Assembly: GCF_963853765.1 (NCBI RefSeq)
Contig: NC_088858.1
Location: 7,006,001 to 7,070,000, forward strand
Direction: 5' to 3'
Source: Magallana gigas
Taxonomy: Eukaryota
Length of the DNA stretch: 64,000 bases
A program made the position numbers. Numbering within the stretch: the stretch's first letter is position 1; each line of letters begins with the position of its first letter. Positions 9,001 through 23,484 of this stretch are shown piece after piece.

Positions 9001-12000
9001 ATTTGAATGGATTAGATTTGTATAATATCTTCATTTGATATTCATTCGCATTCAATATTTTCTACTTTTTCTTTTATATTTTCTATTTGTATTTTTTTTA
9101 TTTGTACATGTGTATTCGATATTTTGCAACTGTAGGAGACTCATTTATACCAAACCTCAATTATTTACTACGGCCGCTGGATTTCTAAATTAAACCAGTT
9201 TTCTGTTTTCCACAAGATAAAAGTAAAAACACAAGATAAAAGCTAGGCTTTAGTACATGTATACGCCGTCATCCTTATATAAGTACATTATTGTAGTTAA
9301 CCACGTTAAAAAAAATTGTTGAGAGAGATGCATTATAGTAAAACATATACTACAATGTGCGGTTCTTATGTCATAAAAAGCCGTAAAACCATCACACGAG
9401 CTAATAATAATGTCAATACCCCCAAGAAATGATATCCAATTAATAGACCATCTTAGTGTTATTAATGTCCAGTCATATCCAGCAACGCAATGTTTGATTA
9501 AATACATAACGGACATAGTTTATTGCGAGTATTGTTATTGCTCTGATGAATCAGTGAAATTGCTCGTTAAAAGTAGCGCTTGGATTTCCGGACTACATCC
9601 GATTTTGGCACCTGGGAAGTGTATATATAGGGGACGGAAAATTCACACACTAGACTGGACAGATCTCAACCAAGGTAAGAGGGTCTCAAAAAGTTATCCA
9701 ATATCTACAACCGTTCTTAAAGGGTAACTCTCATCTGTATAACCATGTATAATTGTGTTAATCAAAAACTTTTCTTTGTTGTAAAATCAGATGTTCATTA
9801 CGTTAACAATTTACAGATTTTACGCACTTATTTTAAAGCTATAATAGAAATTATTAAAAACTTGGAATTCTATGGTCTTGAATACATATCGTGCAATATT
9901 AAGTTGCTTTCAATGGTTTCTTCCTCTATCAGCATGAAGTCGTTTCTGTTTCTACTGAGCGTCGCGTGCTCCTGTTATGGACTTCACATCCTGCCGTGTG
10001 AGCCTGGAGACCCGGGGCCCCTGGGATGTGATGCCTACCAGAGAAACGGTGGCCGCCTAGACGTAGGTGGTGCCGGAGGTGGAGCCATGAATTCCATCGG
10101 GTTCGATCAGAATCAGAACGCCGGTTTTGGAAACGGACTTGGTTCCAATTTCCTGGAGCCAAGGCTCGAATTTGGAATGGACGGAGGAGTAGTGAACGAC
10201 TTTAACAATGGATTTGGTCAAGATGTCGGACTGGTCGATACTGGATTCGACAACGGCTTCCAAAATGACTTATCAGGGCTCAGTCTTGACTCCAATATCG
10301 GACCTGGGGGATTTGATCCCAGTCTCGGGGCTGGAGGATTTGACGCCGGTGTCGGCGGTGGATTTGACGCTAGCTTTGATGTGAACTCCGGTTTAGATGG
10401 GCCTTTCATTGGAGGGGGAGGTGGTGGTGGTTTTGATGGGTTCGACAACGGACTTGGAGGGAATATTGGCGGGCCATCCATCGGAGGAAACTTTGGCGGC
10501 GGGAAAGGTGGAATAATCGGGGGACCCTCGGTGGGGGGATTCAATGAAGGGTTTGGATTTGATGGAAACCTCGGTGGGGCAGACTTTGGACAGGACATAG
10601 GCTTTGGTGGTGCTGGTATTGGTAAAGGCAAAGGATTCGGAGGTGCCATCGGCAGTGGTGCAGGATTTGGAAAAGGAAATGGTATCGGTGGTGCCATCGG
10701 TGGTGGTGCAGGATTTGGAAAAGGAAAAGGTTTCGATGGTGGTATCGGCGGTAATGCAGGATTCGGAAAAGGCAAAGGTTTCGGTGGTGGCATTGCTGGT
10801 GGTGCAAAATTTGAAAAAGGGAAAGGCTTCGGTGGAGGTATCGGTGGTGGGAAGTTCGGTGGATCCCTAGGACCATCTTACCCTAAAAGAAAAGGCTTTA
10901 ATATCGACAGAAGATATAATAAAGGCTTCGGAGGTGGTTCTGGATGGGGGTCAAGAGGAAAGGGAATTATAGGGGGATCTCACGGAATCATGGGAGGAAA
11001 AGGCATTGGTGGAGGTAAAGGTATTATTGGAGGTATTGGAATCGGGGGCGGTTTCGGATTTAGAGGCGGACTCGGCAAAGGATTCGGTAAAAACAGAAGA
11101 ATGAACTACGGACCACAGTTGGGACATTCTTTGAAACCACGCATTGGAAAACGGCCAATTTTCCGTCATAGACGTCCAAACATATTCCCGATAAAAAGAC
11201 CTTACCCCAGCTTTGGAATTCGAAGTCCAGTCTCAATGCTACCAAAATCATACGGAAGAGTTTCTAATTATCCAAAGAATATGCCAATTAAGCCGATCCG
11301 ACGAATGGCGTCCGGTTACTAATCCAAGTCAGGTAAGACGCGACTCTCCGCAATTAACATGTGTAAAGATAATCTTGATACCTGTATATAGTCTCCAATT
11401 CTATATCAAGCTTTGTCATTATAGAACTATTTTTCTAATGTACATACATGTACTAAAACTAATTTTGAAACCTATTTTACAGAAATCAACCGAAGCTGTT
11501 CCAATAAGCAAATTCCCAAGTTGTGTGACTTTGCCGGGAGAAATCTGCACGAGAGTATACCAATAGCTGGAGGAGGCTTCTACAATAGTTCTTTGTTTTG
11601 TACCTTTTTGTTTTTATTTATTCAATAAACTTATTCAAATACCTTTTGTCTTCTCTATGATGTATATACAGGGGAAATATCCGGAAGTTTTAACACAAAG
11701 TGCGGCAATAATTACGCAAATCAAACGTATTCACTGCGTCAGGACTAGTAGGAAGTTATTAGGACATATGGATAGATGCTAATTGTACATGAAGCTAGAG
11801 ACCTATAGTGACATTCCACAGGGCGCCTCCTGAGTGTACAGCGCCGAGAGCGCCACTCGAGTAATCTTCTGAGACTTCCTTATTTAAATTATTTCTTCCG
11901 ACAAAAGAAGGTTCAGAACATGGATAAATTTGTAAAACAAGCAACAGACTTCCCTTAACAAAGTTCACAAACAATAAGTTTGACCCCAGTAATGTATCTG

Positions 12001-21000: not shown

Positions 21001-23484
21001 ACAAATGTAAAAATCAATGCCATGTCAATTAGAATATATTGACCTCAAATGCCATCTTCTTATTCAAAGAAAAAAAATCAACACGAAATGGTCATCATAA
21101 AAAAGCATGTTACAAATCAAACATTACTTATGCACACCTGTATCGATGCTCAGCAATTCTGTCTCTTATGAATAAGTATGAAAGAAGACCTTCCTTATTT
21201 TATAGACACACGGTCCTGATTTAGAAGGAAACATTTATAACGTAGATTTAATGAGACACAGGTGGGCCTCAAGGTGTAGTTCTATCTGATTTACTTTTCA
21301 TGTTTGACGAGTTTGTTCTCGAAAGGCATCTTAAAATTCGGCCTTCCTCTTAAAACTCATATTTGATATCGTATATTGGTGATAAATATGCGTACCATAT
21401 TTGATTCTGTTGCATATACATGTTTTATTTACCTCCCAGAATAGTTACTATTAAACAGGTCCTATATAAGGCCATGGTGCCAATGCTTAGTATCTATTGG
21501 TAAATAGTTCACCTAGCTGAAGAGAGGTAAGGTACCAGTACACAGAAAATAAATTTTAATATTAATATGCAAATCATACATAAATATTTTGAATTTATAA
21601 ATTTGTTTTCATTGTTACAAAAGAGTAACAGAATTTTGCAGAATACTTATATCTTTTTTGAATTACTGAAGATTTTCAACGTGTTATTACATGCATTTCA
21701 AGGATTTTATATCTTGTTACAGATGTTGTCGATAGTAGTATCCCTCTTGTTCCTATCCTCGACTCTTTGTCAGCGCCAATGCGACCCCCGGGATCCAAAC
21801 TGCGTTGACGCATTCCAGGTAGCTGGTGACAATTTTGGCGGGGCAATCGCTGCAGAAATCCCCTATAACAATGTAGCCGACGCTGGTTTCCCCAATGCAC
21901 CCAATACATTTGACACTGTTGCCGTGGTAGGATTCGACAACTTTGATTCTGGCCCTGGAATGCCTCAGGTCCAAGGCATTGAAGTCGTAGGACAGCCATT
22001 TGACGTTCAGTCCGACTTCGGACCTGTCCCGAGAGGAGTTAATATCATTGAAACTAGAGCATTCGATAACGATGAAAACCAAGCAATAATCATCGATACC
22101 AGGGGACCAGTGGACCAGAGACCGATGAACAATGATCTTCAGAACTATCAGCCAAAAATGGACAAGAAAATGGATATTTATCCCGGACAGATGGACAAGA
22201 AAATGGATATTTATCCCGGACAGATGGACAAGAAAATGGACATGTACCCTGGAAAAATCGACAAGAAAATGGATGTCTACCCTGCTAACTTCGATAAATA
22301 TCCCGTGGATAAGTACCCTATGGACAAATATCCAGTTGATAAGTATCCAGTCGATAAATATCCCATGGATAAATACCCCGTTGACAAATATCCCATGGAT
22401 AAATACCCAGTCGACAAATATCCTGTGGACAAATATCCAGTGGACAAATATCCAGTAGATAAATACCCAGTCGATAAATATCCAGTTGATAAATATCCGG
22501 TGGACAAGTTCCCCACTGATAAGTATCCCATGGACAAGTACCCCGTCGACAAGTATCCAGTTGACAAGTATCCGGCTGATAAATATCCAGTTGACAAGTA
22601 TCCAGTTGATAAATATCCGATGGACAAGTACCCTGTTGACAAGTATCCAGTTGACAAATACCCAGTTGACAAATATCCAGTTGATAAATATCCAGTTGAC
22701 AAATACCTAGTTGACAAATATCCAGTTGATAAATATCCAGTTGATAAATATCCAGTTGACAAATATCCAATGGACAAACAAAAGCCAAAATACGACAACA
22801 CATTAGAAAAATACCCTGGTAAGTACGACAAATTCCAGAAATACGACAAATACCCAGGAAAGACACAAGATATCTATCCAGGCAAACTCGACAAGGGATT
22901 CGATAACTATCAAATGGACAAGAAAGGGAACGCATATCCTTCTAAATTAGACAAGACCTACGAACTTTACCCTACCAAAGGATACGACAAGGTCGCAGTT
23001 AGATTCGATGAGAGCGACAAGTACCCTATCGTCGACAAACTCATGAACATTTACCCCACCCAAGCAGACAAAATGATCGATAAATACCAACCCGTCGACA
23101 AGTACCAGCCAAAGTATGAGACCAGGCGGCCAGAGAAATTCCAGAAGGGATCTTACGACAAGTATGTACCTAAGCCAAAATACAACAAAAAATCTTACGA
23201 CACTGGTAAATATAGCAATAAGCGTTACCAGAAGAAGTATGATTACAGCTCTAAGTACCCCAGGAAGTACGATTATCCTGAGCCGACCTCCCGTCCCGTG
23301 TACAGGAGACCCACGGTGACCGAGCCCAGCGTCAACCAACAGGAGTACTACGCCACCCAGCCTCCAGTGAACAGGAGGAGAAACGCACGCAGAATGCAGA
23401 GGCGCCGCCCCTCCAGAAGAAGGTCATCCGGGTACTAAACTCACCTCTTCACATTAGAGATCTCCACCATATTTAGTAAGTTTA

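What the first reader, a model, noticed from the sequence alone, without database searches (positions are those of the whole stretch)
9934..23438. Two unrelated-looking repeat proteins share an N-terminal two-Cys motif and a C-terminal RR..SGY
Seen: the Gly-rich protein's mature region starts LHILP-CEPGDPGPLG-C-DAYQ and ends RRMASGY. The DKYPV protein starts QRQ-CDPRDPN-CVDAFQ and ends RRRSSGY. The consensus is C-[DE]-P-x-D-P-x(1-4)-C-x(0-1)-D-A-[FY]-Q. These are the only Cys in either mature chain. Both genes also have a candidate intron shortly after the stop. Inference: they are paralogs whose interiors were replaced by different repeat expansions, with a small disulfide loop or inter-chain linker conserved as an assembly domain.
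Basis: partly seen in the sequence, partly recalled or inferred. Interest (0 to 1): 0.68.

Follow-up and report, generated by a model that had tools for sequence, protein, structure and literature searches.

The report
Oyster matrix-protein paralogs sharing capped ends

Summary
Gene A (CDS 9934-11322, 34% Gly) and gene B (CDS 21723-23438, 32 DKYPV units) each encode a signal peptide, two Cys at the mature N-terminus, an acidic head and a basic tail ending SGY.

The likeness of the ends is more than chance but weak. N-terminal BLASTP gives E=0.001, and shuffles reach the score 21-40 times in 20,000. The last ten residues match 6/10, which shuffles reach 3-13 times in 200,000, and this is the best of 55 gene pairs in the window. 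A profile of A's relatives built without B does not find B, and hhalign gives only 10% probability.

A belongs to an unnamed family. Two Saccostrea proteins, a Mytilus coruscus protein and several unnamed records share an identical mature start, LHILPCEPG[DY]PGPLGCD. Their interiors differ completely. This shows directly that termini are kept while repeats are replaced. No relative of B was found.

The UTR introns flanking a single coding exon are cluster-wide, not specific to A and B. Basic tails ending in Tyr are also common in the cluster.

Best reading: old tandem paralogs of the shell-matrix, shematrin-like kind. The Cys cap is probably a disulfide or cross-link handle, but this is untested.

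The parts
9622..9627 (+). Gene A TATA-like box. A short non-coding exon 1 follows and ends at 9674; its start is inferred.
   Evidence: TATATA lies 53 nt before the GTAAG donor at 9675.
9675..9932 (+). Gene A candidate 5'UTR intron, with an acceptor 1 nt before the ATG.
   Evidence: CCAAG|GTAAGAG ... TCCTCTATCAG|C ATG. The record P0004 starts at MKSF, which fits. No RNA data.
9934..11322 (+). Gene A coding sequence in one exon. 462 aa precursor, 446 aa mature, 34% Gly, pI 9.9.
   Evidence: Orthologs in Saccostrea echinata and S. cucullata.
9982..10041 (+). Gene A mature N-terminal Cys-loop cap, LHILPCEPGDPGPLGCDAYQ.
   Evidence: Residues L17-D33 are invariant in 7 of 7 aligned family members except one D/Y column.
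10606..10850 (+). Gene A 48-nt (16-aa GFGKGKGFGG-type) tandem array, 5.1 copies.
   Evidence: These columns are gapped or 4/24 identical in the Saccostrea orthologs.
11299..11322 (+). Gene A C-terminal RRMASGY plus stop.
   Evidence: The Saccostrea orthologs end RRIGSGY.
11333..11482 (+). Gene A candidate 3'UTR intron, starting 10 nt after the stop. AATAAA at 11624.
21463..21468 (+). Gene B TATA-like box. A short non-coding exon 1 ends at 21526.
21527..21722 (+). Gene B candidate 5'UTR intron, with an acceptor flush with the ATG.
   Evidence: AGAG|GTAAGGT ... TTGTTACAG|ATG.
21723..23438 (+). Gene B coding sequence in one exon. 571 aa precursor, 555 aa mature, rich in K/D/P/Y, pI 9.0.
   Evidence: Coding frame supported by third-position variation in the repeat.
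21771..21818 (+). Gene B mature N-terminal Cys-loop, QRQCDPRDPNCVDAFQ.
22158..22274 (+). Gene B 33-nt (MDKKMDIYPGQ) array, 3.5 copies.
22293..22778 (+). Gene B 15-nt (DKYPV) array, 32.4 copies.
   Evidence: Pfam Extensin_1 match to residues 229-374.
23415..23438 (+). Gene B C-terminal RRRSSGY plus stop.
23476..23621 (+). Gene B candidate 3'UTR intron, starting 37 nt after the stop. It holds a (TC)25 run at 23488-23538. AATAAA at 23707.
16395..16760 (+). Gene X, which lies between A and B on the same strand. Signal-peptide-like start, mature QILRCPGCKV, only two Cys, ends RTRLGYY. A possible third bearer of an N-terminal Cys pair; kinship not shown.

Best explanation
A and B are two members of a tandem cluster of bivalve genes. 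The window comes from an oyster close to Saccostrea. The genes encode secreted, intrinsically disordered repeat proteins of the shell-matrix or mantle-secretome type.

Each gene has a short non-coding first exon, one exon holding the whole coding sequence, and a non-coding last exon. Each protein has the same order of parts: signal peptide, a two-Cys cap at the very start of the mature chain, an acidic D/F/N/G-rich head (pI about 4), a private tandem-repeat block, and a basic R/K/P/Y tail ending P-x-R-R-x-x-S-G-Y.

A belongs to an old, unnamed family found in oysters and mussels. The family is defined by the invariant mature N-terminus LHILPCEPG[DY]PGPLGCD, and its interior has been rewritten in each lineage by repeat gain and loss. 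B is most likely an old paralog of A. Its cap has shrunk to C-DPRDPN-C-V-DAFQ, and its interior was overwritten by a DKYPV array.

Inferred mechanism, not shown: in the oxidising extracellular space the Cys pair either closes a small Pro-rich disulfide loop or bridges chains. It would act as a fixed docking or cross-link handle. The repeat block would set the material properties: a Gly-rich elastic or silk-like filler in A, and a Tyr/Lys/Pro block open to tyrosinase tanning in B. The basic Tyr-ended tail would bind acidic matrix or mineral, or be cross-linked oxidatively.
For: Shown:
- Both frames, motifs and repeats exist.
- B's frame is under coding constraint. Across all 32 units of the array, the minor-base fraction is 0.39 at codon position 3 against 0.04 and 0.025 at positions 1 and 2.
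- A has relatives (6 proteins with E<=0.01 among 422 candidates). They are two near-identical unnamed records, S. echinata LOC133201295 (78% identity), S. cucullata LOC134231969 (75%), a Mytilus coruscus unnamed product and one unnamed record.
- A profile search among longer proteins adds three mussel-like unnamed records and one copy of A that looks C-to-T converted (10 proteins among 4519 candidates).
- In 1.84 billion representatives only 4 clusters match at E<=0.001.
- All 7 aligned members share L-H-I-L-P-C-E-P-G-x-P-G-P-L-G-C-D directly after unrelated signal peptides.
- Conservation by block against S. echinata: N-terminal block 21/22, interior repeats 4/24, tail 16/25. The mussel proteins align only at the N-terminus.
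- A-B likeness: BLASTP E=0.001, N-terminus to N-terminus. Shuffles reach the score 21 and 40 times in 20,000. With B's first 50 mature residues as query against 1116 window ORFs, A is the best non-self hit (49 against 33). The C-terminal 6/10 identity is reached by 3-13 of 200,000 shuffles and is the top of 55 pairs, the next being 4/10.
- Both proteins have the same charge polarity and exactly 2 mature Cys.
- The genes are on the same strand, 10.4 kb apart, with the same three-exon plan.

From the literature:
- Shell-matrix families evolve by gain, loss and shuffling of repeat motifs (PMC4897951, passages).
- Shematrins and KRMPs carry a basic C-terminal signature ending in Y (PMC3896809, passages).
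- N-terminal Cys of the silk-like framework proteins MSI60, hic74 and hic42 have been proposed to matter for disulfide-based framework assembly (bioRxiv 10.1101/2022.09.07.507049, passages).
Against: - An HMM of 7 A-family N-termini built without B finds only A (E=1.5e-21). B's ORF is not among the hits I printed, which ran up to E of about 41; I printed only the first 4000 characters of that output.
- hhalign of the A-family alignment against B gives 10% probability and E=0.0031, over 39 columns only.
- With A's first 50 residues as query, B ranks behind six Gly-rich ORFs.
- The A-B N-terminal score of 37 ties with the compositional pair C-D.
- The Cys spacing differs (9 against 6 residues), and LHILP is absent from B.
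- There is no DNA likeness between the two loci outside the coding sequence. The best match is 12/12 nt inside the coding sequence, E=0.37.
- No relative of B was found, so conservation of B's motif is unknown.
- The mussel relatives do not end in RR..SGY.
- The shared intron plan is cluster-wide.
- Expression in the mantle, presence in the shell, the disulfide state and any binding are all untested here.
Confidence: 0.65

Rival explanations
1. A and B are unrelated low-complexity genes that only sit in the same cluster. On this reading the N-terminal two-Cys likeness and the basic ..SGY end arose by chance, or by convergent selection on the ends of secreted matrix proteins.
For: - The profile built without B fails to find B, and hhalign gives 10% probability.
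- The N-terminal score ties with a purely compositional pair.
- Basic tails ending in Y are common in the window: 8 of the 11 candidate ORFs end in Y. They are also a known signature of other families (PMC3896809).
- There is no non-coding DNA likeness.
- The patterns were chosen after the fact from among many possible features.
Against: - The two ends are independent of each other and both beat shuffles, at about 1-2 in 1000 and 1.5-6.5 in 100,000.
- A-B is the only one of 55 pairs high on both ends.
- The match is positional, mature residue 4-6 onward in both.
Confidence: 0.25
2. The conserved ends are processing signals rather than parts of the finished material. The N-terminal cap would be a sorting or pro-region. 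The RR before the last 4-5 residues would be a dibasic convertase site, so the mature proteins would lose ..SGY.
For: - Sequence only: RR or RRR lies 4-5 residues from the end in A, B and both Saccostrea orthologs.
- The exact conservation of 17 residues directly after the signal-peptide cut would also fit recognition by a conserved cellular partner.
Against: - Basic residues are frequent all along both tails, so an RR near the end is expected.
- There is no P4 Arg in A.
- The mussel relatives have no such end.
- Nothing here tests cleavage.
Confidence: 0.08
3. B is not a real gene. Its long frame would be a by-product of a 15-nt satellite that keeps several frames open.
For: - Three minus-strand frames and two other plus-strand frames are also open across the array.
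- No homolog of B was found.
Against: - Variation among the 32 units is almost all at codon position 3 of this frame.
- The frame continues 570 nt upstream and 660 nt downstream of the array through non-repetitive sequence. It has a signal peptide, a TATA box, splice sites flush with the ATG and a poly(A) signal.
- The ESM Atlas holds the same protein letter for letter. This shows only that others predicted it too.
Confidence: 0.02

Closest known systems
Shematrins (Gly-rich shell framework proteins of Pinctada and shematrin-like proteins of other bivalves)
   Same: - Secreted, basic overall, with long Gly-rich tandem repeats (A).
- A basic C-terminal end finishing in Tyr.
- Family members differ by gain, loss and shuffling of repeat motifs while the ends persist (PMC3896809; PMC4897951; PMC9210306).
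   Different: - There are no G(n)Y repeats in A or B (0 found). A uses Phe (26 GF, 1 GY).
- The end is RR..SGY, not RKKKY, RRKKY or RRRKY.
- The passages I read do not mention an N-terminal Cys pair in shematrins.
- No shematrin sequence was compared here.
Silk-like framework proteins with N-terminal cysteines (MSI60, hic74, hic42)
   Same: Repetitive low-complexity framework proteins whose few Cys lie in the N-terminal region. They have been proposed to take part in disulfide-based assembly of the insoluble matrix (bioRxiv 10.1101/2022.09.07.507049, passages).
   Different: - By my recollection those proteins have poly-Ala/Gly blocks and a different number of Cys.
- No sequence relation was tested.
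- The LHILPCEPG.. cap is not mentioned in any paper of the library: 0 papers for 'CEPGDPGP' and 0 for 'HILPCEPG'.
Uncharacterised proteins LOC133201295 (Saccostrea echinata), LOC134231969 (S. cucullata) and an unnamed product of Mytilus coruscus
   Same: True relatives of A, with an identical mature N-terminal cap. The oyster proteins also share the acidic head and the tail ending RRIGSGY.
   Different: - The window's A carries a 48-nt repeat expansion that the Saccostrea proteins lack.
- The mussel proteins have DPTxQF-type repeats and a YPKG/Lys-rich tail without RR..SGY.
- None of them has a described function.
Plant extensin-like Pro/Tyr/Lys repeat proteins (Pfam PF02095 Extensin_1) and Tyr/Lys/Pro-rich mussel adhesive repeats
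   Same: - B's DKYPV array scores 120.2 bits against the Extensin_1 cut-off of 105.
- Short Pro-Tyr-Lys repeats are typical substrates for oxidative Tyr cross-linking (general knowledge).
   Different: - The match is confined to the pentapeptide array, residues 229-374.
- There are no Ser-Pro(n) blocks, and the longest Pro run in B is PP.
- The host is an animal, so this is likeness of composition, not kinship.
Synthetic tyrosinase-driven polymerisation of peptides carrying Cys and Tyr through cysteinyl-DOPA links
   Same: It offers a chemical precedent for joining chains through a thiol and a Tyr-derived quinone (PMC6282983, search listing and start of abstract only).
   Different: It is an artificial system. 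Nothing here shows that A or B are oxidised or joined in this way.

Membership tests
Unnamed LHILPCEPG-cap family (Saccostrea LOC133201295 / LOC134231969, Mytilus coruscus unnamed product) | Mature chain starts L-H-I-L-P-C-E-P-G-[DY]-P-G-P-L-G-C-D directly after the signal peptide. | tested here: met
   Met for gene A: identical in 7 of 7 aligned members, with profile hits at E=1e-26 to 1e-7. Not met for gene B: only C-[DE]-P-x-D-P ... C ... D-A-[FY]-Q remains, and the profile built without B does not find it.
Unnamed LHILPCEPG-cap family | Detectable as a relative by profile methods (applied to gene B). | tested here: inconclusive
   hhalign gives 10% probability and E=0.0031. BLASTP gives E=0.001. 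Shuffles reach the score 21-40 times in 20,000. The HMM built without B gives no hit.
Unnamed LHILPCEPG-cap family | Acidic D/F-rich head followed by a basic tail. | tested here: met
   A: N-terminal half pI 4.05, C-terminal half pI 11.8. B: first 130 residues pI 4.05, last 130 residues pI 10.2. Charge profile. The mussel members have a DPTxQF head and a Lys/Tyr tail.
Shematrin | Gly-rich with G(n)Y repeat domains. | tested here: not met
   A is 34% Gly but has 0 G(n)Y motifs. B is 4% Gly and also has 0. The feature is as described in PMC3896809 and PMC9210306.
Shematrin | C-terminal signature RKKKY, RRKKY, RRRKY, IRRKK or PRKKY. | tested here: not met
   A ends RRMASGY and B ends RRRSSGY. They share only the basic run and the final Tyr. 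The neighbouring gene C ends RRRGRRRPRY, which is closer.
Shematrin | Sequence similarity to Pinctada shematrins. | not tested
   No shematrin sequence was fetched. PMC9210306 notes that shematrin-like proteins of different genera cannot be aligned.
Pfam PF02095 Extensin_1 | Score above Pfam's gathering cut-off. | tested here: met
   B: 120.2 bits against a cut-off of 105, E=1.1e-34, residues 229-374 only. This is the DKYPV array, so I read it as repeat and composition likeness.
Plant extensins | Ser-Pro(3-5) blocks of a plant cell-wall glycoprotein (feature recalled, not taken from a call). | tested here: not met
   The B sequence has no run of three or more Pro. The host is a bivalve.
Shell matrix protein (operational class) | Found in shell extracts, or expressed specifically in the mantle. 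| not testable with these tools
   No expression or proteome data could be reached.

The most novel reading that the evidence does not exclude
The LHILPCEPG[DY]PGPLGCD cap is an undescribed, ancient terminal module. By my recollection of bivalve phylogeny it predates the oyster-mussel split and is hundreds of millions of years old. It would act as a universal plug for matrix proteins whose interiors are freely exchangeable.

Together with the Tyr-ended basic tail it would let chains polymerise head to tail outside the cell. The N-terminal thiols of one chain would add to the tyrosinase-made quinone of the C-terminal Tyr of the next chain (cysteinyl-DOPA), or the caps would join by disulfide exchange. 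Unrelated repeat blocks (Gly-rich A, DKYPV B, perhaps CPGC-bearing X) could then be copolymerised into one framework.
Probability: 0.12. Interest if true: 0.75.

Novelty: new variant of a known kind. Interest (0 to 1): 0.5.

Why it matters
Shell-matrix proteins evolve so fast that families can rarely be traced between bivalve orders. A 17-residue cap that is identical in oysters and mussels, on proteins that otherwise cannot be aligned, would help in two ways.

- It is a rare fixed landmark. It gives a handle for finding relatives, for tracing how repeat blocks are swapped, and for asking what the constant part does.
- If the cap and the Tyr-ended tail are cross-link points, they would explain how disordered fillers of very different composition are fixed into one insoluble framework. 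They would also suggest a simple design for recombinant materials.

If the ends are only processing signals or chance, this is an ordinary tandem cluster of low-complexity secreted genes.

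Tried and rejected
**Searches and comparisons that gave nothing**
- Pfam: no family for A, gene C, X, g38, g45, g53 or g54. The LPAM_1 hits for D and E are below cut-off and are just signal peptides.
- Search of B's first 145 residues: 521 candidates, none with E<=0.01, and only proteins of 314-1000 aa were examined.
- Profile including B, against longer proteins and against 1.84 billion representatives: only A-type proteins were returned, and not even B itself.
- ESM Atlas: B's best score was 0.79, below the tool's own lead level. 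For the M. coruscus protein there was no usable hit, and its stored model is disordered, with pLDDT 0.31.
- PDB profile search: 0 hits at E<=10.
- Kinship of gene C with A or B: BLASTP E=0.10 and 2.0. Rejected as unsupported, though A and C share DFNNGF (17/19 nt) and the same exon-1 junction CCAAG|GTAAGAG.
- Non-coding DNA likeness between the A and B loci: none.
- The 3'UTR intron as A/B-specific evidence: rejected because it is cluster-wide.
- KRMP as a Cys-bearing analogue: the passages of PMC4498902 that I read say nothing about Cys in KRMPs.

**Ideas considered and dropped**
- A collagen-like reading of EPG-DPG-PLG between the Cys. It is only three triplets, and B has no Gly there.
- An acid-labile or self-cleaving Asp-Pro bond. 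The D is replaced by Y in some unnamed mussel-like records.

**Steps that could not be run**
- The listing of cluster members: database switched off.
- Structure prediction: not accepting jobs.
- McDougall et al. 2013 on shematrin and KRMP evolution is not held. I know it only through the review PMC4897951.

**Not applicable or not needed**
- The bacterial and archaeal genome-contig collection was not used because it cannot hold bivalve loci.
Each coding sequence lies in one exon, and the 23-nt candidate intron of gene X was only described.

Full report
**What is there**

The window is AT-rich eukaryotic DNA, with GC of 0.26-0.46 in 2-kb steps. It has one run of N at 34166-34302, which I left alone.

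- Gene A, from the ATG at 9934, encodes MKSFLFLLSVACSCYG | LHILPCEPGDPGPLGCDAYQ ... RRMASGY.
- Gene B, from the ATG at 21723, encodes MLSIVVSLLFLSSTLC | QRQCDPRDPNCVDAFQ ... RRRSSGY.

With the signal-peptide cuts drawn above (my reading, no predictor run), each mature chain has exactly two Cys.

A is 34% Gly and has a 48-nt unit repeated 5.1 times at 10606-10850. B has 32 DKYPV units (15 nt x32.4, 22293-22778), preceded by 3.5 units of 33 nt.

**Are they genes?**

A is certainly a gene. Near-identical unnamed records and orthologs in Saccostrea echinata and S. cucullata exist, with 78% and 75% identity over the first 130 residues.

B has no relative in any search, so I tested its frame internally. 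Across all 32 units of the array, variation sits at codon position 3. The mean minor-base fraction is 0.39 there, against 0.04 and 0.025 at positions 1 and 2. That is the signature of selection on the peptide in this frame. The ESM Atlas also holds the same protein letter for letter, which shows only that it has been predicted before.

**Gene plan**

Both genes have the same plan:
- a TATA-like box (9622; 21463);
- a GTAAG donor 53-64 nt later (9675; 21527);
- an acceptor 0-1 nt before the ATG (9932; 21722);
- the whole coding sequence in one exon;
- a GTAAG donor 10 nt (11333) or 37 nt (23476) after the stop;
- an acceptor (11482; 23621);
- the first AATAAA only after that acceptor (11624; 23707).

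It is not special to this pair, however. Of 11 candidate secreted ORFs in the window, 6 have GTAAG within 45 nt after the stop, against 3.4% of random 45-nt windows. By my reading, 9 of the 11 have a pyrimidine-AG within 12 nt before the ATG. No RNA data could be consulted, so all introns are candidates. Because each coding sequence is in one exon, no spliced or joined model had to be searched, and none was.

**Is the A-B likeness more than chance?**

Evidence for:
- BLASTP of the mature first 50 residues of A against mature B gives a single positional HSP, A 6-49 to B 4-40, 14/44 identical, E=0.001.
- The Smith-Waterman score of 45 is reached by 21 of 20,000 shuffles of B and 40 of 20,000 shuffles of A.
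- With B's first 50 residues as query against all 1116 ORFs of 30 aa or more in the window, A is the best non-self hit (49 against 33).
- The last ten residues, KPIRRMASGY and RPSRRRSSGY, are 6/10 identical. This is reached by 3, 8 and 13 of 200,000 shuffles of the last 20, 30 and 60 residues.
- Among the 55 pairs of the 11 candidate secreted ORFs, A-B has the highest C-terminal identity (next best 4/10). Its N-terminal score (37) is third, after the obvious paralog pairs D-E (202) and g45-g47 (186) (signal-peptide lengths set by hand).

Evidence against:
- That N-terminal score ties with C-D (37), which is compositional.
- With A as query, B ranks behind six Gly-rich ORFs.
- An HMM built from seven A-family N-termini without B recovers only A (E=1.5e-21) and not B. 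I left out P0003 and P0004 as copies of the window, P0009 as a converted-looking copy, and P0012 as a fragment. I printed hits only up to E of about 41.
- hhalign of the family alignment against B gives 10% probability and E=0.0031, over 39 columns.
- There is no non-coding DNA likeness between the two loci.

My reading is that two independent ends both beat their nulls, and the pair also shares strand, neighbourhood and block order. Chance is therefore unlikely. The link is nonetheless old and thin, and it is not proven by profile methods.

**What A's relatives show**

This is the strongest result. The following all begin their mature chain with the same 17 residues, L-H-I-L-P-C-E-P-G-[DY]-P-G-P-L-G-C-D, followed by x-[YF]-x-x-N-G-G-x-L:
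- the two Saccostrea proteins;
- an unnamed product of Mytilus coruscus (order Mytilida, against Ostreida for Saccostrea);
- four unnamed records built like it.

The signal peptides in front of this cap differ between them.

Behind the cap, the oyster proteins continue with a GFD/DFNNGF-type acidic head, Gly-rich repeats and a tail ending RRIGSGY. The mussel-type proteins have DPTxQF repeats and a YPKG/Lys-rich tail with no RR..SGY.

Conservation by 25-column block against S. echinata is 21/22 at the cap, 4/24 in the repeat block and 16/25 in the tail. The window's 48-nt array falls in the repeat block and is absent from both Saccostrea orthologs. Against the mussel protein only the first 50 columns align.

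In 1.84 billion representative proteins the profile finds just four clusters at E<=0.001. There is no PDB match and no Pfam family. The strings 'CEPGDPGP', 'HILPCEPG' and 'DKYPVDKYP' occur in 0 papers of the library.

So 'ends kept, interior replaced' is directly visible within A's own family. The cap is a real, strongly constrained element that has not been described in the searchable literature.

**What the proteins are like**

Both are block-amphoteric.
- In A the N-terminal half has pI 4.05 and the C-terminal half pI 11.8.
- In B the first 130 residues have pI 4.05 and the last 130 have pI 10.2.

The window holds many further small secreted low-complexity ORFs (gene C, X, g38, g45/g47, g53, D/E). 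Several end in a basic run plus Tyr. This is the picture of a bivalve mantle-secretome or shell-matrix gene cluster.

The literature describes exactly this kind of protein:
- Families evolve by gain, loss and shuffling of repeat motifs (PMC4897951, passages).
- Shematrins and KRMPs carry a basic C-terminal signature ending in Y (PMC3896809, passages).
- Shematrin-like proteins cannot be aligned between genera (PMC9210306, passages).
- The silk-like framework proteins MSI60, hic74 and hic42 have their Cys in the N-terminal region, and disulfides have been proposed to matter for framework assembly (bioRxiv 10.1101/2022.09.07.507049, passages).

A and B are not shematrins by the stated criteria, since they have no G(n)Y repeats and a different end. 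B's Pfam Extensin_1 hit (120.2 bits against a cut-off of 105, residues 229-374) covers only the DKYPV array. I read it as likeness of a Pro/Tyr/Lys repeat, not kinship.

**How it most likely works (inferred)**

The constant cap sits at the extreme N-terminus, is rich in Pro, Gly and Asp (turn formers), and holds the only two Cys of the chain. In the oxidising extracellular space these will either close a 6- or 9-residue loop or bridge chains. Either way the cap would be the one structured, recognisable point on an otherwise disordered chain: a docking or cross-link handle.

The interior sets the material properties. A has a Gly/Phe/Lys filler. B has a Tyr/Lys/Pro block suited to quinone tanning. 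The basic Tyr-ended tail could bind acidic matrix or mineral, or be oxidised.

The boldest reading still open is head-to-tail coupling of the N-terminal thiols to the C-terminal Tyr-derived quinone. Peptide chemistry offers a precedent (PMC6282983, listing and abstract start only). None of this was tested.

**Verdict**

This is a new variant of a known kind: repeat-bearing matrix proteins with conserved ends. Its added value is a sharply conserved, undescribed N-terminal Cys cap shared by oysters and mussels.

Open points:
- whether B has orthologs that keep its ends;
- whether these genes are expressed in the mantle and their proteins end up in the shell;
- the chemical state of the two Cys.

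Noticed in passing
window, 11 candidate secreted ORFs (A, X, B, C, g38 38891-39259 -, g45 45518-45796 -, g47 47834-48109 +, g53 53728-53997 +, g54 54985-55263 -, D 55359-55883 -, E 61127-61615 -): There is a cluster-wide gene plan: the whole coding sequence lies in one exon flanked by UTR introns. 6 of 11 ORFs have GTAAG within 45 nt after the stop, against a background of 3.4% of random 45-nt windows. 9 of 11 have a pyrimidine-AG within 12 nt before the ATG. The donors lie so close to the stop that such introns would, from general knowledge, escape nonsense-mediated decay.
   Followed up: partly
16369-16760 +: Gene X lies between A and B. An ATG at 16369-16371 is followed by GTATGT...GACAG of only 23 nt. 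Without those 23 nt the frame would read M-AAVTSLTLLSVLAAVTSG, a clean signal peptide. The mature chain starts QILRCPGCKV, has only two Cys (CPGC) and ends RTRLGYY. Either this is an unusually short intron or the gene is disrupted. Kinship to A and B is not shown: the Smith-Waterman score to B's N-terminus is 32, and there is no Pfam hit.
   Followed up: partly
25677-26261 +: Gene C is a secreted Gly/Asp/Phe/Asn-rich protein with no Cys, ending RRRGRRRPRY. It has the same exon-1 junction as A (CCAAG|GTAAGAG, 12/12 nt) and shares DFNNGF with A (17/19 nt). BLASTP to A (E=0.10) and to B (E=2.0) is not significant. It has no candidate 3'UTR intron.
   Followed up: partly
28369-28968 -: An exon encoding a thaumatin-family domain sits amid the low-complexity genes (Pfam PF00314, E=1.3e-69, profile positions 23-208 of 209).
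   Followed up: no
55359-55883 - and 61127-61615 -; 45518-45796 - and 47834-48109 +: There are two clear paralog pairs. D and E (N-terminal score 202) have a poly-(F/Y)DD acidic block, a Gly/Met block and GYGKK repeats. g45 and g47 (score 186), in divergent orientation, end NRKHY and RKHHY. The D and E frames probably continue into a further exon (g54 lies just downstream of D); I did not check this.
   Followed up: no
protein record P0009 (unnamed source), matches 9913-10218 +: This 102-aa record is A's N-terminus with every difference of the C-to-T type (P to L/F, S to F, A to V, H to Y, R to C), including at CpG. It looks like assembled bisulfite-converted reads. It carries the upstream MVSSSIS-type stretch and so is colinear with genomic DNA.
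   Followed up: no
30650-31376; 32947-33315 and 34690-34974; N run 34166-34302: A 172-bp satellite is present (4.3 copies). Two 21-nt arrays in opposite orientation flank the masked or gap stretch. The N run was left untouched.
   Followed up: no
21753-22941 - and 10218-10877 -: Long open frames on the opposite strand of both repeat blocks (317, 207, 198 aa over B; 219, 157, 113 aa over A) are by-products of the repeats, not genes.
   Followed up: partly
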